From an uncultured Methanosarcinales archaeon (GTDB lineage Archaea; Nanobdellota; Nanobdellia; Woesearchaeales; CALCXY01), in contig CAYLOA010000005.1 of assembly GCA_964385185.1 (NCBI GenBank), forward strand, positions 1 to 61,655: 61,655 nt of DNA, in the 5' to 3' direction. Of the stretch, positions 12,698 to 22,390 are shown piece by piece (within the stretch, counting starts at the first letter, position 1; each line of letters opens with the position of its first letter). The notes under the pieces were generated by a model. That model was given only the letters and a program-made list of their open reading frames with translations. It was not told where the DNA came from and ran no database searches. Both the position numbers and the translations under genes were made by a program.

Positions 12698-12790
12698 TTA
12701 TTTACCCTTCAACAAGAACCAACAACCAATCGCAATAGCCAGTAACGGCACAATAAACACCTGCATCGTAAAAGGAACACCAACCAATCC
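12698..12790 (-). pseudogene. orphan C-terminal transmembrane segment of an unidentified gene
   Basis: Frame offset from ccdA reads GLVGVPFTMQVFIVPLLAIAIGCWFLLKGK*, a clean TM helix with a basic end, followed by a T-rich tract. Confidence 0.5.
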
Positions 12791-13355
12791 TAAGTTGACT
12801 CTTAGCTCCACTAATCACACTAAACACTAAGAGCGGAAAACTTAATCCAATCCCGAAGAACAAAAAGTTTGACATACTACTCACAACATTATCAACTAAT
12901 AATGCTCGTGCAAAGAAGGCAGCAATAAATCCAGGATTACAAGGAATAACAATTGCTCCAAAGAAAAATCCAAAAAGGAAGGCAGTCAAATAAGAGTTCT
13001 TCAAAATAGGTGCACTCTTCTTTGGTATAATGGACGTAAAGTCAACATTAAATATTAAAAGTAAACTAATTACTCCCAAAATTCCAAATGCAATAGGACT
13101 TACAACTCCAATGACGGTTGTTAATGATTTTTGAAACAAGGTTGTAAAGATTAACCCCAATAGTGTCATAAACACCAACACACCCAGAGTTACCAATAAT
13201 CCTAGATACACAGGCAACCGAGAATTTTCTTCTTTGCCTTTTAGTTGATTACTTAGATAAGAAAGAAATCCTGGATATAAAGGTAAAACACAGACAGCAG
13301 TAAGTGGAGTTAACAACCCCAATACAAAACTGGTGCCTATATCAGTAAAACTCAT
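12702..13355 (-). pseudogene. ccdA: cytochrome c biogenesis protein CcdA, 3'-truncated/fused
   Basis: GLLTPLTAVCVLPLYPGFL and VIPCNPG Cys motifs; ATGA overlap with the upstream thioredoxin; homology appears to stop near SGAKSQ (~12795) and the final TM helix is absent. Confidence 0.65.
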
Positions 13356-13957
13356 GCACAAGTCTCCTCAAGTGCTAATTTCAGTTTTTCTTTCCCTTTA
13401 TTTCCACCTGGAAGCAAGGTTGCACTTTGGTCTTCACAAATAACGATAACAGGCACACTCGGTGCACTCACCACCCCTACCCCAAATTCTTCAATAAGTA
13501 ATTTTGTCATTTCTATAGGACTCACACTAAAATACCAATCGAAGTTGTTACTTTTAATATGATCTTCTACTCTCTGTTCATCTTCATTAGGATCAGTGTC
13601 AAGAGAGATATACACCACACCATCCGTCTCTTGTTTAAGAATTTTAATTTCTTTTTGTTCTTTTGTACATTTAGGACACCAAACCGCAAAACTTTCTAAC
13701 AATATTTTCTGTCCTGCAAAATCACTTATCCTATATGTCTCCCTAGTGGAAATATCTTTCAATTCAATATTTCTCCAATCATTCAAATCCTGTTGCACTT
13801 CAGGTACTTCTTCAACATGTTCTTTCTCAATAGGCTCCATAACATGCTCCTCGATAACAGAATCTTCAACAACTGGAATCTCAGCAGTAATTTCTTCAGT
13901 CGTAGAACATCCTAGAAAGATAATCATTAATATTCCAATAAACACCACTTTTTTCAT
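13352..13957 (-). CDS. TlpA/redoxin-like thioredoxin lipoprotein
   Basis: Lipobox-like FLGC; ESFAVWCPKC active site; adjacent to ccdA. Confidence 0.85.
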   Translation of the reverse strand: MKKVVFIGILMIIFLGCSTTEEITAEIPVVEDSVIEEHVMEPIEKEHVEEVPEVQQDLNDWRNIELKDISTRETYRISDFAGQKILLESFAVWCPKCTKEQKEIKILKQETDGVVYISLDTDPNEDEQRVEDHIKSNNFDWYFSVSPIEMTKLLIEEFGVGVVSAPSVPVIVICEDQSATLLPGGNKGKEKLKLALEETCA

Positions 13958-16141: not shown

Positions 16142-16840
16142 ATGGTAAATATGCAAAACTTAAAATTACTACAGATTCTAATCGGGGTGACTCTTATAGT
16201 TGGTCTCTTAAATCTGTATGGAACATTTAACATACAAAGTCAATTAGATGGAGGTGTAGCACCAACAGTAGGCGCAGCTGCTCCTTCACCAACACAACCT
16301 TCAGCACCTGCTGCTAAGGTTGATGTAAGTGTAGATGATGACCCATTCAAAGGGGATGCAGATGCACCGATAACGATTATCGAGTTTTCTGACTTCGAGT
16401 GTCCATTCTGTGGAAGGTTCTACAGTCAAACACTAGGCGAATTGGAAGAAAAATACGTTAAAACTGGAAAAGCTAAGATTGTCTTTCGAGACTTTCCATT
16501 AAGCTTCCATCCAAAAGCACAAAAAGCTTCAGAAGCTTCTGAGTGTGCAGATGACCAAGGTAAATTCTGGGAAATGCACGATATGATTTTTGAAAATCAA
16601 AACTCAATCGGAATCACTGATCTTAAAGGATACGCAGCTGATCTAGGATTAGACACAGCAACTTTTGATTCATGTCTAGATTCTGGTAAACACGAAGCTG
16701 AAGTTCAAGCTGATTTCAGAGATGGTTCAGCTGCTGGAGTTTCCGGAACACCAAGTTTCTTTGTAAACGGTGTGAAGTTAGTAGGTGCTCAACCATTTGC
16801 TGCTTTCGAGCAAGTAATTGAAGCTGAACTAAACAGTTAA
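16142..16840 (+). CDS. DsbA-family thiol-disulfide oxidoreductase, membrane-anchored
   Basis: EFSDFECPFC, VFRDFPL, A.ASECA..QGKFW, GVSGTPSFFVNG. Confidence 0.92.
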   Translation: MVNMQNLKLLQILIGVTLIVGLLNLYGTFNIQSQLDGGVAPTVGAAAPSPTQPSAPAAKVDVSVDDDPFKGDADAPITIIEFSDFECPFCGRFYSQTLGELEEKYVKTGKAKIVFRDFPLSFHPKAQKASEASECADDQGKFWEMHDMIFENQNSIGITDLKGYAADLGLDTATFDSCLDSGKHEAEVQADFRDGSAAGVSGTPSFFVNGVKLVGAQPFAAFEQVIEAELNS

Positions 16841-16862: not shown

Positions 16863-18326
16863 TTATTTTAAATATTTCTCTCTCAAATAATTCAAGAAAT
16901 CATCACAACCTAACTCTTTACCAGTAGCTTTCTTAACAATCTCTCCAGCCAACAAAGAGCTTCCATGTCTATGTACCTTCTCCTTCAACCATTTTTTAAC
17001 ATAACGAAGATCTCCTTTAGCTAAATCTTTTTGTAACTCTTTTCGATCCATCTCCAATTGCTTAAACAATGAAGCAGAATACATAACTCCTATGGCATAC
17101 GTAGGAAAATATCCAAAATATCCTAGGCTCCAATGAGTATCTTGTAAACAACCTTGTGCATCACTTTTAGGTACTATCCCAAGATACTGTTCGTATTTAT
17201 CATTCCATGCCTTAGGTAAATCTTTCACCTTCAAACTTCCTTCAATTAAGGCAACTTCTAATTCAAATCGAATAATTACATGTATAGGATACGTCACTTC
17301 ATCCGCTTCAATTCTGATGGGACTCGGTCTCACATCATTCAAATGGAGCATAAACTTTTTCTTATCAACAGTTAATCCATGCACTTTCTTAAAATGAGGA
17401 TAGTAATAACTCCACCAGGCATCATGCTTCATAATATGGTCTTCCCAAAACTTTGACTGAGATTCATGTAATCCGATACTCGGTGCCGTATATAAAATAG
17501 AACCTCGAAATTTAGAATCAAAGTTCAATTCATATAATGCATGTCCACATTCATGACAGGTAGAAGTATAAGAGAATAAAGGCTCATCAGGCCTATATGC
17601 AGTTGTCAATCGAACATCATCAGGACTAATAGGATCAGAGAAAGGATGCACAGACTCTCCTAATACCACTCTTTCTTCACCCAATATTCTCTTAACCACA
17701 TCTTCAGCAATCTTTCGTTCACCTTCAATGGAAAATGCCTTATTATGGATACGGACTGATTTCTGATCTTTCAGTTTGTCAAGAATCATCAGTAATCCTG
17801 CTTTTAACTCCCCAAAGACTTTCTTCAAAGTATCTACTGTCATTCCTTCTTCAAAATCATCCAACAAAACATCATAAGGATGTTTTTTGCCATCAATAAG
17901 CTGAGCTTCTTTCTGTCTCATCTCAAATAATTTCTGCAAATAAGGTGCAAAATGTTTAAAGTTATTTCTCGCCTTAGCTTCTTCCCAAGCTTGAGAACTT
18001 TTAGTAACCAAACGTGAAAAGGTATCAATATGCTCAAGAGGAATCTTTTCAATTTTCCTCAACATTTTATGATATTTTTTAACCCTTGCAGCATTAGAAA
18101 ACGATAATTTCCTCTCACCATGCAACTTTCCAATAATACTCTTAAATTCCCCAGAAGTGGATTTCCCATACAATTGCTTTGCAACATACGCAATATGATC
18201 TGCTCGCTGTTCTATCGCCTCAGGAGGCATAATAGTAGCTCTATCATAATTCAAGAGATTAGTAATACCACCCAAGACAGCAAATTCCTTTTCATACTGA
18301 TCGAGAAGTGCAAGCTCTTTTTTCAT
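16863..18326 (-). CDS. carboxypeptidase M32 (Taq-like)
   Basis: HPF, DVRLTT, HECGHALYE (HEXXH), HESQS, IRIEADEVTY..H, GYFPTY. Confidence 0.93.
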   Translation of the reverse strand: MKKELALLDQYEKEFAVLGGITNLLNYDRATIMPPEAIEQRADHIAYVAKQLYGKSTSGEFKSIIGKLHGERKLSFSNAARVKKYHKMLRKIEKIPLEHIDTFSRLVTKSSQAWEEAKARNNFKHFAPYLQKLFEMRQKEAQLIDGKKHPYDVLLDDFEEGMTVDTLKKVFGELKAGLLMILDKLKDQKSVRIHNKAFSIEGERKIAEDVVKRILGEERVVLGESVHPFSDPISPDDVRLTTAYRPDEPLFSYTSTCHECGHALYELNFDSKFRGSILYTAPSIGLHESQSKFWEDHIMKHDAWWSYYYPHFKKVHGLTVDKKKFMLHLNDVRPSPIRIEADEVTYPIHVIIRFELEVALIEGSLKVKDLPKAWNDKYEQYLGIVPKSDAQGCLQDTHWSLGYFGYFPTYAIGVMYSASLFKQLEMDRKELQKDLAKGDLRYVKKWLKEKVHRHGSSLLAGEIVKKATGKELGCDDFLNYLREKYLK

Positions 18327-18360: not shown

Positions 18361-19722
18361 CTATTCCAATCCTTCAACTATTTCTTTCATATCATTAAAA
18401 TTAACAGCAGAATAATAAATACTCTCATCACTAGTCTCTACGTTTGTAAACACATACCCTGGTGTACCAAGAAAGCCATATTCATCAATCACTTCCCCAC
18501 AATGTCTAATATCATATTTCTCAATAAATAATTGATCACCAAACTCTTCAAGTAATTTTGGATGAACGTTAATCGATTGTTCCCAACACAAATTACAATA
18601 AGGACTATCAATAACTCTCACCCTAATATTTGCAGAAGTATTCCCTTCAACTGAGTGTGGACATTGCTTTAATTCTTCTGTATCAAACGATACTCCCACA
18701 CCATAAGTGATAAGCTGAACAAGTACAAACAACACAGCAACAATTCCTATTATCTTCAGTAGTTGTTTTGTCCCATTTGACTTTGCCAATCTTACCCAAC
18801 TAAAATCTAATCCTTTGCTCATTCCATATAAGAATATACATCCTCCAACTACGAAAAAGACAACGGTGAGACCATGATGCCAAGCACTTACCATATACAC
18901 CCCAAAATCCATCAATAATCCTCCACCGATGAGGTAATACCACCAATTCTTTTGTTGATGGATAGTAGTAATGTCTCTATTTTTTGACATGTTCTTGTAT
19001 ACCATAAGTGTCACACAAACAACAACCAATAACACTAATTGTGTAGCACTCAAACCCATCCAATGCCAAGTATAAGCTCTTAAGAATTCAACACTAAATC
19101 TCATGATACTATATAATAAAACGAAATGAATAAACAACTCTCCTCTAAACTTCTGATGTCCCCTTTTCCATACAATATAACTAAAAATAAACAAATTTCC
19201 AATGGAACTATAGATTTGTGTAGGATGAATTGCAACTCCATCTCTCACAACTGCCCAAGCTACATTGGATCCTTCCCCAAAACAACATCCAGCGAAAAAA
19301 CATCCAATCCTTCCAAAGAATAATCCCATAGATGCAATGAGTGCACCCATATCAGCATAGATTCCTACACCCAATTTTCTCCAGACAACATATCCAAATC
19401 CAAAAAGAAAACCAAAGATCAAACCTCCAATCATAACGAGTCCTGAATAATGATACGGATTGATAACAGCAGTAATCAATTCTATAAACGTTCCTCCATC
19501 ACTCCACGGTCCAAAGGTATAAAATAATCTTGCCCCAAATAGTATTCCAAAGAATACCCAGAAATAAGACCAAAATGTTTGTTTACCATTGAGCTTCTGT
19601 CTTTTCACTTCAACATATAAAATTACAGCACCAAAAAGCAATACTAAAACATACATCAAACTATACAAAAAGAATTTCTGATTACCTACAAAGAATGTAT
19701 TGGTAATCTCATAAGGAATCAT
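18361..19722 (-). CDS. lgt: prolipoprotein diacylglyceryl transferase-like protein fused to a C-terminal thioredoxin-like domain
   Basis: GRIGCFFAGCCFG, HPTQIY and RFSVEFLR Lgt motifs; extra TMs, then DSPYCNLC...GTP thioredoxin fold. Confidence 0.8.
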   Translation of the reverse strand: MIPYEITNTFFVGNQKFFLYSLMYVLVLLFGAVILYVEVKRQKLNGKQTFWSYFWVFFGILFGARLFYTFGPWSDGGTFIELITAVINPYHYSGLVMIGGLIFGFLFGFGYVVWRKLGVGIYADMGALIASMGLFFGRIGCFFAGCCFGEGSNVAWAVVRDGVAIHPTQIYSSIGNLFIFSYIVWKRGHQKFRGELFIHFVLLYSIMRFSVEFLRAYTWHWMGLSATQLVLLVVVCVTLMVYKNMSKNRDITTIHQQKNWWYYLIGGGLLMDFGVYMVSAWHHGLTVVFFVVGGCIFLYGMSKGLDFSWVRLAKSNGTKQLLKIIGIVAVLFVLVQLITYGVGVSFDTEELKQCPHSVEGNTSANIRVRVIDSPYCNLCWEQSINVHPKLLEEFGDQLFIEKYDIRHCGEVIDEYGFLGTPGYVFTNVETSDESIYYSAVNFNDMKEIVEGLE

Positions 19723-19766: not shown

Positions 19767-19904
19767 ATGGATATGACTGTTTTTACATGTAACGAATGTA
19801 ATATGAAATTCAAAGATAAAGCTATAGCTCAAAAATGTGAAGACTGGTGTAAAAAACATAAAAGTTGTAATTTAGATATTATTAAACTTGCAATTAAATC
19901 CTAA
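19767..19904 (+). CDS. small Cys/His-rich putative zinc-binding protein (45 aa, not in ORF track)
   Basis: Hand translation MDMTVFTCNECNMKFKDKAIAQKCEDWCKKHKSCNLDIIKLAIKS. Confidence 0.7.
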   Translation: MDMTVFTCNECNMKFKDKAIAQKCEDWCKKHKSCNLDIIKLAIKS

Positions 19905-19937: not shown

Positions 19938-20426
19938 ATGAAACCAAAACAACTTGGAATAGCAATTATTCTTCTCAGTATTACTGTAATTGTATTAATG
20001 CTTTCTTTTAAAGTTCAATTTGACAGTCAACAACAAAAAGCGTGTGCAAGTGCATGTGGGGATTCAGATTTGGATACTTGTGCCATAACTTCTTGCCCCT
20101 TTCATAATACAGGAGCTCTTGGATGGATACCGATTCTTGTAAGTATTTTAGTTGCAGGATTAGGCGGAATTGGTGTATTCCTCTCATTTTCAGGGGAGAA
20201 AAAGATCATTCACACAAAAGAATATGACTTGAGTGGGTTAGATGAAGAAGAAAAGAAAGTATTCCACCTCATAAAAGATAAACAAGATGGAATCTATCAA
20301 AGTAAAATTGTAGAAACACTCGATTCATCAAAAGTTAAAATTACTCGAATTCTAGATAAATTAGAACAAAAAGAGCTTATTGAACGTAAAAGAAGGGGCA
20401 TGACGAACATTGTAGTCCTACGTTGA
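19938..20426 (+). CDS. membrane-anchored winged-HTH (MarR-like) regulator with Cys-rich loop
   Basis: Two TM helices flanking C.SAC...C....CPFH; C-terminal GIYQSKIV...SKVKITRILDKLE.K.LIERKRRGMTN. Confidence 0.75.
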   Translation: MKPKQLGIAIILLSITVIVLMLSFKVQFDSQQQKACASACGDSDLDTCAITSCPFHNTGALGWIPILVSILVAGLGGIGVFLSFSGEKKIIHTKEYDLSGLDEEEKKVFHLIKDKQDGIYQSKIVETLDSSKVKITRILDKLEQKELIERKRRGMTNIVVLR

Positions 20427-21643: not shown

Positions 21644-22390
21644 TTACCTCTCACGATAATAGGTACGCAACACATAAAATCCAACAATAACCATAACAAA
21701 ACTCAACCATTGTCCCATACTTAAGAATATAAATCGAGCATTTTCTCTATAGAAATCAACAAAAATTCTACCAAGCCCCATCAAGATAACAAACCACCAA
21801 AAGAGATAGCCATCTTTCCGTTCTTTTTTATCAATAACATACAATACTCCAAAGATTACAAAACGTGTAAACGCTGCATACAATTGTGAAGGATGTCTAC
21901 ATCCTTCTGCTCGAGGAAATACAACACACCAATTCACGTTGGTAACATTCCCCCATAATTCTCCATTAATAAAATTAGCAATCCTACCTAATGCTAAAAA
22001 GAAGGCTGCTGGTAAGACTACAATATCAGCCATTTTAGGAACACTAATATGATGTTTTTTACAATACCAAACCCCTAATAATCCTCCACCTAATAATCCT
22101 CCATGAAAACTCAATCCTCCTTTCCACACTTTGAAAATCTCTACAAAATTACTCAAATAATAATTTGGCTCCCAAAAAAAGACATGAAACAATCGAGCAC
22201 CCAAAAGCATTCCAATAAAGATGTAAAAAAGAAAATCATCAATCTGTTTCTCATTAATCCCTAAAGATTCTTTTTTCTTTTTAAGAATAATATACAATGC
22301 AATAAAAGCAAAAACATACACTAAACCATAGAATCTAATTTCAAACGGTCCTAATGATAAAAGTGTAGGATTGATATTATGAATAAACAT
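21644..22390 (-). CDS. lgt: prolipoprotein diacylglyceryl transferase
   Basis: FYGLVY, GGLSFHGG, LGRIANFINGELWG, HPSQLY; canonical motifs retained. Confidence 0.92.
   Translation of the reverse strand: MFIHNINPTLLSLGPFEIRFYGLVYVFAFIALYIILKKKKESLGINEKQIDDFLFYIFIGMLLGARLFHVFFWEPNYYLSNFVEIFKVWKGGLSFHGGLLGGGLLGVWYCKKHHISVPKMADIVVLPAAFFLALGRIANFINGELWGNVTNVNWCVVFPRAEGCRHPSQLYAAFTRFVIFGVLYVIDKKERKDGYLFWWFVILMGLGRIFVDFYRENARFIFLSMGQWLSFVMVIVGFYVLRTYYRER

What the first reader, a model, noticed from the sequence alone, without database searches (positions are those of the whole stretch)
18361..19722. Lgt-thioredoxin fusion with an altered catalytic motif
Seen: an Lgt domain of the GRIGCFFAGCC type in which the FHGG His is replaced (GLVMIGG), followed by extra TM helices and a thioredoxin-fold domain with CNLC and cis-Pro GTP. 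Established: Lgt transfers diacylglycerol to a reduced lipobox Cys thiol. Inference: the fused CxxC could keep that thiol reduced for lipidation, or the enzyme may use another acceptor or lipid. I do not know this architecture from characterised proteins.
Basis: partly seen in the sequence, partly recalled or inferred. Interest (0 to 1): 0.55.

Follow-up and report, generated by a model that had tools for sequence, protein, structure and literature searches.

The report
Archaeal Lgt enzyme fused to thioredoxin
A tiny marine archaeon has one intact gene joining a variant of the bacterial lipoprotein-anchoring enzyme Lgt, through three extra membrane helices, to an outward-facing thioredoxin domain; the fusion is rare and uncharacterised, and it suggests that lipid attachment to a cysteine is directly coupled to keeping that cysteine reduced.

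Summary
Window 18361-19722(-) is one uninterrupted 453-aa ORF with three parts:
- an Lgt domain (Pfam LGT E 8e-35; model matches E. coli Lgt 5AZB);
- three extra TM helices;
- an extracytoplasmic thioredoxin fold with CNLC and GTP.

The same fusion occurs in four diverged lineages on many independent contigs, so it is not an assembly artefact.

The "altered catalytic motif" is not special to this gene. GRIGCFFAGCC with Tyr for His103 marks a large bacterial Lgt clade. That clade supplies the only Lgt hit in two large bacterial genomes. The literature already notes H103→Y/W/F, N146→C and E151→C/D. Only the further change to Ile/Leu is peculiar to the fusions.

The Trx module belongs to a small family of membrane-anchored, four-cysteine Trx proteins. 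In relatives these sit in CcdA operons, and in the sister species the order is Trx–CcdA–membrane protein–Lgt-Trx. That points to a reducing role.

Bacteria have independently made TlpA–Lgt fusions, and this scan had already noted Lgt–TlpA and Lgt–VKOR fusions on other DNA.

Best reading (about 0.45): a lipidating Lgt paralogue with a tethered, CcdA-fed reductase for the acceptor thiol. This is a new variant of a known kind and of moderate interest.

The parts
18361..19722 (-). Whole gene, 453 aa plus stop: Lgt domain, 3-TM linker and thioredoxin domain in one frame
   Evidence: full-length relatives
19000..19692 (-). Lgt-family 7-TM domain, residues 11-241, of the GC type
   Evidence: Pfam LGT E 7.7e-35. 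Foldseek hit to 5AZB, TM 0.73 by target. Falls in the GC-type clade, SH-aLRT 99.
19423..19443 (-). GLVMIGG. Ile98 stands where E. coli Lgt has His103 and most GC-type Lgts have Tyr.
   Evidence: Column counts: Y 62, F 5, H 3, L 2, I 1, Q 1.
19276..19314 (-). Signature motif GRIGCFFAGCCFG. R138 corresponds to R143, C141 to N146, C146 to E151, C147 to L152 and G149 to G154.
18688..18945 (-). Three additional TM helices (TM8-TM10), including the fusion-specific conserved motif VYMVSAW(H/N)
   Evidence: motif used as a search pattern
18364..18675 (-). Extracytoplasmic thioredoxin-fold domain, residues 350-453. Four family-invariant Cys: C354, C376, C379, C408.
18586..18597 (-). CNLC redox motif at the N-terminus of helix 377-394
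18460..18468 (-). GTP, the presumed cis-Pro loop just before strand 422-427
21644..22390 (-). Canonical Lgt paralogue (GGLSFHGG, GRIANFINGELWG). It is the genome's other LGT gene.
12702..13361 (-). CcdA/DsbD-family membrane electron transporter, a candidate reductant of the Trx domain
16142..16840 (+). Membrane-anchored DsbA-like oxidoreductase, showing that this envelope has an oxidising thiol system

Best explanation
The gene encodes a bifunctional membrane enzyme.

N-terminal part. The seven helices are an Lgt of the 'GC type' (GRxGCFFAGCC; Tyr, Phe or an aliphatic residue in place of His103). This is a natural Lgt variant that serves as the only detected Lgt in some diderm bacteria. The domain keeps the lipid-phosphate-binding arginines and the other core residues. 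It most likely still transfers a (di)acyl- or dialkyl-glyceryl group from a membrane phospholipid to the lipobox cysteine of exported proteins, alongside the canonical Lgt and an Lsp encoded elsewhere in the genome.

Linker. Lgt ends in the cytoplasm. Three further helices carry the chain back out.

C-terminal part. A small four-cysteine thioredoxin domain sits at the outer membrane face beside the Lgt cavity. It is probably kept reduced by a CcdA electron transporter. It would use its CxxC to reduce disulfides or sulfenic acids on the acceptor cysteine, and possibly on the enzyme's own three active-site cysteines. The thiol can then be alkylated in an envelope that also holds a DsbA-type oxidase.

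Shown here: domain identities, topology logic, integrity, rarity, phylogenetic placement, and CcdA linkage in relatives.

Inferred: catalytic activity, the direction of electron flow, and the identity of the Trx substrate.
For: Architecture and fold.

Lgt core residues kept: Y20 (E. coli Y26), D124 (D129), R138 (R143), G149 (G154), Y204 (Y235), R208 (R239), E212 (E243) and R215 (R246).

GC type is probably a working Lgt: it gives the sole PF01790 hit in a 4.1-Mb Nitrospinales and a 5.3-Mb Desulfobacterales genome. Natural H103/N146/E151 variation is reported in PMC13251419.

Topology: Lgt has its N-terminus outside and seven TMs (PMC4728403). The three added TMs have K/R-rich inner loops, and the Trx domain is acidic.

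Reducing pathway:
- In the sister species the gene order is 3xTrx-like protein, CcdA, 267-aa membrane protein, Lgt-Trx, on one strand with overlapping or near-abutting ORFs.
- G050 has CcdA-Trx-membrane protein-Trx-CcdA.
- Trx-module genes lie within 5 kb of a ccdA in 5 of 8 loci.
- The window's own genome has two CcdA genes, one 5 kb away.

Selection for the fusion:
- It is retained at 33-38% identity across lineages, with both domains' motifs and a linker motif conserved.
- The fusions form one clade with a stand-alone archaeal GC-type Lgt.

Convergence: bacterial proteins carry an N-terminal periplasmic TlpA-like WCPPC domain joined to a canonical Lgt.

Pathway context: Lsp is present in the genome. 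Lipobox proteins lie nearby, for example the TlpA-like protein with FLGC at 13352-13957.
Against: No activity data exist for any GC-type Lgt or for any Lgt-Trx fusion.

Position 103 is Ile here. In E. coli, H103A/N/Q/R/Y are all inactive, N146A is inactive, and E151A/Q are inactive in one study (PMC4728403).

The protein scores below the TIGR00544 equivalog cut-off (71 vs 118.9 bits).

Two of the four fusion lineages also change G154 to Thr, and one changes Y235 to Phe.

In this genome the fusion is not adjacent to ccdA. It is 1.5 kb from a DsbA-like gene, and in two other genomes the stand-alone Trx module overlaps a DsbA-like gene. An oxidising or isomerising role is therefore not excluded.

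Model coordinates and PAE were not available, so the position of the CxxC relative to the Lgt cavity is unknown.
Confidence: 0.45

Rival explanations
1. The Trx domain serves the enzyme itself. It keeps, or switches, the redox state of the GC-type active-site cysteines C141, C146 and C147. These replace residues of the N146/E151 hydrogen-bond network near the outer leaflet and might form a disulfide or a metal site. Lipidation would then be redox-protected or redox-gated rather than acting on the substrate thiol.
For: C141/C146/C147 are nearly invariant in the GC clade (70-71 of 74 sequences). They sit at cavity positions that form one H-bond network in E. coli (PMC4728403). The variants that replace CC use other classic metal ligands: GCFFAFDH in G001 and GCFFSWDGCHG in G003.
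Against: Hundreds of bacterial GC-type Lgts work without a fused Trx. The G001 fusion has lost two of the three cysteines yet keeps the Trx domain. There is no geometry or metal data.
Confidence: 0.2
2. The Lgt-like domain no longer lipidates. It is a diverged paralogue kept as a membrane scaffold or signal-peptide/lipid-binding module for a general envelope thiol reductase or isomerase. Alternatively the fusion is a neutral joining of two neighbouring membrane genes.
For: There are substitutions at H103 (aliphatic), N146 and E151, plus G154T and Y235F in some fusion lineages. A canonical Lgt is present to do the housekeeping job. The score is below the equivalog cut-off. Most stand-alone Trx modules have their own single TM anchor (35 of 44), so Lgt is not needed for anchoring.
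Against: In the window's protein all lipid-binding and other core residues are conserved. Its clade includes sole-copy bacterial Lgts. The fusion and both domains' motifs have persisted over deep divergence. Bacteria made Trx-Lgt fusions independently, which argues for functional coupling.
Confidence: 0.2
3. The Trx domain is an oxidase or isomerase of the DsbA/DsbC kind. It would introduce or shuffle disulfides in lipoproteins as they are lipidated, rather than act as a reductase.
For: A DsbA-like gene lies 1.5 kb away in the window. Stand-alone Trx modules overlap DsbA-like genes in G201 and G372. Thr before the cis-Pro is typical of DsbC/DsbG-type proteins (my own knowledge). The CxxC dipeptide varies widely across the family.
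Against: Direct operon linkage to CcdA, a reductant importer, in G001 and G050. No DsbB or VKOR partner was seen at these loci. The convergent bacterial fusions use a TlpA-like WCPPC domain, a class that generally acts as a reductase.
Confidence: 0.1
4. Assembly or annotation artefact: two genes wrongly joined, or a pseudogene.
For: None found.
Against: The frame is continuous. The identical or near-identical 453-aa protein occurs on several contigs from NCBI, JGI, Logan and ENA. Three further diverged full-length lineages exist (453, 460 and 458-461 aa), including Tara Oceans contigs.
Confidence: 0.01

Closest known systems
E. coli Lgt (phosphatidylglycerol:prolipoprotein diacylglyceryl transferase; PDB 5AZB/5AZC)
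   Same: Seven-TM fold (Foldseek TM 0.73 by target). Pfam LGT. Conserved Y26, D129, R143, G154, Y235, R239, E243 and R246 equivalents.
   Different: His103 is Ile, N146 is Cys, and E151-L152 are Cys-Cys. The head domain is very short. There are 200 extra residues: three TMs plus a Trx domain. No phmmer hit to 5AZB at E<=1e-3, and the score is below the TIGR00544 cut-off.
GC-type Lgt clade of Thermodesulfobacteriota, Nitrospinota, Nitrospirota, Acidobacteriota, Clostridia and others (GRIGCFFAGCCYG, GGLVFYGG). It is uncharacterised; its substitutions are noted in PMC13251419.
   Same: Same clade (SH-aLRT 99), same Cys triad, and loss of His103.
   Different: Those are stand-alone proteins of about 255 aa, mostly with Tyr at position 103. 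This one is archaeal, has Ile there, and carries the 3-TM plus Trx extension.
Bacterial TlpA-Lgt fusions
   Same: A thiol-redox domain is tethered to Lgt on the extracytoplasmic face.
   Different: The origin is independent. In P0180/P0183, the two read in full, the Trx is N-terminal behind a signal peptide, so no extra TMs are needed; P0181/P0182 share the Pfam annotation. The Trx is of the TlpA/Redoxin type with WCPPC. The Lgt is canonical (HGG, GNFINGE).
CcdA-dependent extracytoplasmic thioredoxins (ResA, TlpA, CcmG, pneumococcal Etrx1/2)
   Same: Membrane-tethered, outward-facing CxxC Trx fold encoded next to ccdA in relatives.
   Different: This is a different and smaller Trx subfamily with four invariant Cys and the signature CP..GN..SP[YFW]CxxCW..YDIRxC..GTP. 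No cytochrome c or Msr partner is evident. Here it is fused to Lgt.
Small archaeal thioredoxin/glutaredoxin-like protein, PDB 1NHO ('Probable Thioredoxin')
   Same: Closest solved sequence relative of the C-terminal domain (E 5e-5). Compact Trx fold.
   Different: That protein is 85 aa with no membrane part. It is cytoplasmic, from Methanothermobacter, and lacks the extra conserved Cys pair (my own knowledge).
VKOR-thioredoxin fusions (e.g. Synechococcus VKOR, PDB 3KP9; from my own knowledge)
   Same: A polytopic membrane enzyme whose chain is carried back across the membrane by added TM helices to an extracytoplasmic Trx-like domain.
   Different: VKOR is itself a redox enzyme that oxidises its Trx domain. 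Lgt is a lipid transferase.
AliA/AliB, the archaeal lipoprotein lipidation factors of Haloferax (PMC12462473)
   Same: Proposed role in attaching lipid to lipobox Cys in archaea.
   Different: AliA/AliB are not Pfam LGT members (HHpred 29%). This protein is a bona fide LGT-family member of bacterial type.

Membership tests
Lgt family (Pfam PF01790) | Profile score above the curated cut-off | tested here: met
   120.8 bits vs 24.9; 125.3 bits in the genome search
Lgt family (Pfam PF01790) | Seven-TM Lgt fold | tested here: met
   AF2 pLDDT 89.8. Foldseek 5AZB E 5e-7, TM 0.73 by target over 284 columns.
Lgt family (Pfam PF01790) | Lipid-phosphate-binding Arg143 and Arg239, plus Y26, Y235, E243 and G154 | tested here: met
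   R138, R208, Y20, Y204, E212 and G149 are present
Canonical (E. coli-type) Lgt | His103 in the HGGL motif | tested here: not met
   Ile98 in GLVMIGG. H103 is not universal in natural Lgts (PMC13251419).
Canonical (E. coli-type) Lgt | Signature motif GRxGNFINGELWG (N146, E151) | tested here: not met
   GRIGCFFAGCCFG
Canonical (E. coli-type) Lgt | NCBIfam TIGR00544 equivalog cut-off | tested here: not met
   71.2 bits vs 118.9. The neighbouring canonical copy scores 182.3.
GC-type Lgt clade | GCxxxGCC triad and placement inside the clade on a tree | tested here: met
   C141/C146/C147 present. The clade has SH-aLRT 99, and the fusions plus the G013 stand-alone protein group at 99.
Lgt (enzyme activity) | Diacylglyceryl transfer from phosphatidylglycerol to the lipobox Cys | not testable with these tools
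Thioredoxin fold class | Trx fold with CxxC at the N-terminus of helix 1 and a cis-Pro loop before strand 3 | tested here: met
   C376-C379 lie before H377-394, and GTP421 before E422-427. Foldseek thioredoxins TM 0.7-0.87. 1NHO E 5e-5.
Thioredoxin fold class | Pfam thioredoxin-family score above the cut-off | tested here: not met
   Thioredoxin_3, 12.8 bits vs 24.8. Family relatives P0142, P0144, P0166 and others do pass PF00085.
CcdA-dependent extracytoplasmic reductases | Extracytoplasmic location | tested here: met
   Topology from seven Lgt TMs plus three added TMs, positive-inside loops and an acidic domain
CcdA-dependent extracytoplasmic reductases | Genetic linkage to ccdA/dsbD | tested here: inconclusive
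   Adjacent in G001 and G050, and within 5 kb in 5 of 8 loci. In the window, ccdA is 5 kb away and a DsbA-like gene is nearer.
CcdA-dependent extracytoplasmic reductases | Low redox potential and electron transfer from CcdA | not testable with these tools
   Needs biochemistry

The most novel reading that the evidence does not exclude
Lipoprotein lipidation in this archaeal lineage is mechanistically coupled to the envelope reducing pathway. Electrons would flow CcdA -> fused Trx -> lipobox cysteine. The Trx CxxC would deliver a freshly reduced thiolate into a GC-type Lgt active site. That site has replaced the His/Asn/Glu chemistry with a Cys3 cluster (or Cys/Asp/His in a relative), possibly binding metal and activating the thiol. 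This would be a second, so far unrecognised catalytic solution for Lgt, used by whole bacterial phyla.
Probability: 0.15. Interest if true: 0.75.

Novelty: new variant of a known kind. Interest (0 to 1): 0.5.

Why it matters
Lgt is the committed step of lipoprotein biogenesis and an antibiotic target. Its chemistry needs a free cysteine thiol on the oxidising side of the membrane, yet nobody has studied how that thiol is protected.

Evolution has repeatedly welded a thiol-redox domain to Lgt. This archaeal C-terminal fusion, the bacterial N-terminal TlpA fusions and the CPR VKOR fusions are Rosetta-stone evidence for such a link, and they offer a compact system to test it.

The work also shows that the Cys-rich, His-less Lgt variant is probably the housekeeping enzyme of several bacterial phyla. 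That bears on the proposed catalytic role of His103.

Finally, bacterial-type Lgt (two kinds) and Lsp are present in a DPANN archaeal order, whereas recent papers state that Lgt is absent from archaea.

Tried and rejected
Contexts of P0004 and P0126 could therefore not be fetched, and context came from the genome search, the fetch from genomes and the search for related loci instead.
- The protein atlas was unreachable twice. When it answered, it added only an Lgt structural hit.
- Alignment A3, with all Trx-only sequences, misaligned the last Lgt helices and was discarded. A4 was checked column by column before folding.
- phmmer of the Lgt part against PDB sequences found nothing. The fold search did find 5AZB.
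- No sequence similarity was detected between the fusion's linker helices and the N-terminal helices of stand-alone Trx proteins with three hydrophobic segments. The origin of TM8-9 is unresolved.
- The conserved 267-aa membrane protein of the G001 and G050 operons has no Pfam family and no homologue in the window's genome.
- Literature searches for an Lgt-thioredoxin fusion found none.
- One row in the tree (arch_G031) was a wrongly picked ORF with a very long branch and should be ignored.
Cys-Cys distances and the domain interface could not be measured.
Full report
**1. What is there.**

Window 18361-19722 on the minus strand is one open frame of 453 codons.
- Pfam LGT covers residues 11-241 (E 7.7e-35, 120.8 bits).
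GLVMIGG is at residues 94-100, GRIGCFFAGCCFG at 137-149, CNLC at 376-379 and GTP at 419-421.
- The last 114 residues miss every Pfam threshold (Thioredoxin_3, 12.8 bits). They do match the small archaeal thioredoxin 1NHO (E 5e-5) and several classical thioredoxins.
- An AlphaFold2 model was built on a hand-checked alignment of 83 sequences. It is confident (mean pLDDT 89.8, pTM 0.79).
- Foldseek returns E. coli Lgt 5AZB for the N-terminal part (TM 0.73 by target). It returns dozens of thioredoxins for the C-terminal part (TM 0.7-0.87, rmsd about 2 A over about 92 columns).

**2. Topology.**

E. coli Lgt has seven TM helices, and its N-terminus contributes to the periplasmic head (PMC4728403). 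The Lgt core therefore ends in the cytoplasm.
- The model and hydropathy show three more helices, at about 260-280, 283-304 and 316-345.
- The loops at 242-262 and 303-320 are K/R-rich.
- The final domain is acidic, with 21 D/E against 7 K/R.

The thioredoxin domain is thus outside the cell, on the face where Lgt meets the lipobox cysteine.

**3. Not an artefact, but rare.**

In a collection of 5.8 billion protein clusters, the full-length fusion appears in only three clusters in that search:
- the window's own cluster (453 aa; NCBI, JGI, Logan and ENA contigs);
- P0126 (453 aa, 68% identical);
- P0004 (460 aa, 38% identical).

A fourth lineage comes from the same-genus genome G001 and from Tara Oceans-type contigs (P0128/P0288, 458-461 aa).
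- Both domains' motifs and a linker motif, VY(M/F)VSAW(N/H), are conserved across them.
- Among 401 genomes sampled from the archaeal order, the Trx module was found in 9. The fusion was found in 2, G000 and G001.

The host is archaeal. The contig carries Dph2 and archaeal LonB. Earlier follow-ups of this scan placed it in marine DPANN/Woesearchaeota.

**4. The 'altered catalytic motif'.**

Most of the best non-fusion hits (70 of the 74 Lgt-bearing rows aligned) are proteins of about 255 aa carrying GRIGCFFAGCCYG and GGLVFYGG. Column counts across the aligned members:
- the N146-equivalent position is Cys in 71;
- the E151/L152-equivalent positions are Cys-Cys in 70;
- the H103-equivalent position is Y 62, F 5, H 3, L 2, I 1, Q 1.

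It found at least 595 such loci in Thermodesulfobacteriota, Nitrospinota, Nitrospirota, Acidobacteriota, Elusimicrobiota and others.

In a 4.1-Mb Nitrospinales genome and a 5.3-Mb Desulfobacterales genome, this GC-type gene is the only PF01790 match. It is therefore very probably their working Lgt.

A 2026 mBio study states that H103 is replaced by Y, W or F in nature. It also states that N146 and E151 are replaced by C or C/D in distant Lgts (PMC13251419). The motif is a known natural variant, not a peculiarity of this gene.

What is peculiar to the fusions is a further step at position 103: Ile (window), Leu (P0126, G001) or Tyr (P0004). In E. coli, H103A/N/Q/R/Y, N146A and (in one study) E151A/Q are inactive (PMC4728403). 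The GC clade must therefore organise catalysis differently.

The window's protein keeps the equivalents of Y26, D129, R143, G154, Y235, R239, E243 and R246. The P0004/G001 branch is more eroded, with G154T in both and Y235F in G001.

**5. Origin.**

On a maximum-likelihood tree:
- the GC-type sequences form one clade (SH-aLRT 99);
- inside it, the four fusions group with a stand-alone 254-aa GC-type Lgt of another archaeon of the order, G013 (support 99);
- the window's second Lgt (21644-22390, canonical HGG and GNFINGELWG; TIGR00544 182 bits) sits with other archaeal canonical Lgts.

With the protein query, Lgt-family genes were found in 45 of 61 genomes of the order. The window's genome also has Lsp. 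The fusion is thus a paralogue, added to a complete bacterial-type pathway.

**6. The thioredoxin module and its company.**

An exhaustive HMMER search with the last 114 residues found only 53 representatives.
- Most are proteins of 120-220 aa with one N-terminal TM anchor (35 of 44 scored).
- The signature is CP..GN..SP[YFW]CxxCW..YDIRxC..GTP.
- All four cysteines are essentially invariant.
- Several members pass Pfam Thioredoxin.

Gene neighbourhoods:
- In G001 the order on one strand, with overlapping or near-abutting ORFs, is a secreted three-fold Trx-like protein, CcdA, a conserved 267-aa membrane protein without a Pfam family, and then the Lgt-Trx fusion.
- In G050 the order is CcdA, Trx, the same membrane protein, Trx, CcdA, and a small Cys-rich secreted protein.
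- A ccdA lies within 5 kb in 5 of 8 loci examined. In two genomes the module overlaps a DsbA-like gene.
- The window's genome has two ccdA genes, one at 12702-13361 next to a TlpA-like lipoprotein, and a DsbA-like gene at 16142-16840.

CcdA/DsbD proteins import reducing power. This is the main reason to read the fused domain as a reductase.

**7. Convergence.**

Searching for longer relatives of the canonical Lgt found bacterial proteins of 451-462 aa (P0180-P0183). P0180 and P0183, read in full, have a signal peptide and a TlpA-like WCPPC thioredoxin domain preceding a canonical Lgt. Lgt's N-terminus is periplasmic, so no extra helices are needed there.

The scan's own earlier notes list further Lgt-TlpA fusions. 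They also list a followed-up Lgt-VKOR fusion in CPR bacteria; I did not check those individually.

Tethering a thiol-redox domain to the outer face of Lgt has therefore arisen several times. That argues for functional coupling rather than accident. No paper describing any of these fusions was found.

**8. Interpretation.**

Most likely (about 0.45), the protein is a lipidating GC-type Lgt with a tethered, CcdA-fed reductase. The reductase keeps the acceptor cysteine alkylatable in an envelope that also contains a DsbA-type oxidase.

Rivals:
- The Trx domain maintains or gates the enzyme's own Cys triad (0.2). The replacement of CC by DH in G001, and by D.CH in G003, hints at a metal site. That is speculation.
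- The Lgt part is an inactive scaffold (0.2).
- The Trx domain is an oxidase or isomerase (0.1).
- Artefact (0.01).

None can be settled without biochemistry. The decisive experiments are listed separately.

**9. Verdict.**
- Its emphasis on an altered catalytic motif is largely explained by membership of a widespread, probably functional Lgt clade.
- The finding is a new variant (an independent C-terminal fusion, a different Trx family, an archaeal host) of a known kind of enzyme. Interest is moderate.

Noticed in passing
window 21644-22390(-); G000:C10:11818-12207(-); order-wide search: This DPANN archaeon has a canonical Lgt (TIGR00544 182 bits) and an Lsp (PF01252, 127 bits). Lgt-family genes were found in 45 of 61 genomes of its order. 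Two recent papers (PMC12462473, PMC13251419) state that Lgt is absent from archaea.
   Followed up: partly
L113 (G401, Nitrospinales) and L114 (G402, Desulfobacterales): The Cys-rich, His103-less GC-type Lgt (GRxGCFFAGCCYG, GGLVFYGG) is the only PF01790 match in two large diderm bacterial genomes. This implies that it is their housekeeping Lgt, although three of its positions are individually essential in E. coli.
   Followed up: partly
window 19938-20426(+): Divergently transcribed from the fusion gene. The protein has a TM helix, a Cys-rich ectodomain (five Cys within about 25 residues), a second TM helix and a cytoplasmic winged-helix domain (DUF7343/MarR). It is a candidate membrane-bound sensor of envelope thiol redox state.
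   Followed up: no
window 19767-19904(+): An unannotated-looking 45-aa ORF with two Cys pairs (CNEC ... CEDWC) and a fifth Cys, like a zinc ribbon. It lies in the intergenic region between the fusion gene and the TM-HTH regulator.
   Followed up: no
L123:16-4359(+) (= G001 C35); L007/L025 (G050 C5): A conserved envelope-redox operon in relatives. It contains a secreted protein with three Trx-like repeats, a long (329-aa) CcdA, and a conserved polytopic membrane protein of about 260 aa. That membrane protein has no cysteines in the G001 copy, no Pfam family, and no homologue in the window's genome.
   Followed up: partly
L004:1492-2877 (G001) and L011 (G003): The Cys-Cys of the GC motif is replaced by Asp-His (GCFFAFDH) in G001 and by D.CH (GCFFSWDGCHG) in G003. 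This swaps one set of classic metal ligands for another. It hints at a metal site in GC-type Lgts, which was not tested.
   Followed up: no
P0144 (418 aa): The same four-Cys Trx module is fused to an FKBP-type peptidyl-prolyl isomerase behind a signal anchor. This is an extracytoplasmic folding-catalyst fusion.
   Followed up: no
proteins; P0064: Lgt takes part in many other fusions. Partners include PF02578 (many proteins of about 530 aa, some named Alphaproteobacteria), PF02636, PF00929 and PF01925. In P0064 (Aeoliella sp. per NCBI), a PDZ domain is inserted in the head region of a GC-type Lgt.
   Followed up: no
window 16863-18326(-) and L124:3007-4524(+): An M32 carboxypeptidase lies next to the fusion gene in the window and within about 2.5 kb of it in the sister species. 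This is the only synteny seen between the two fusion loci.
   Followed up: no
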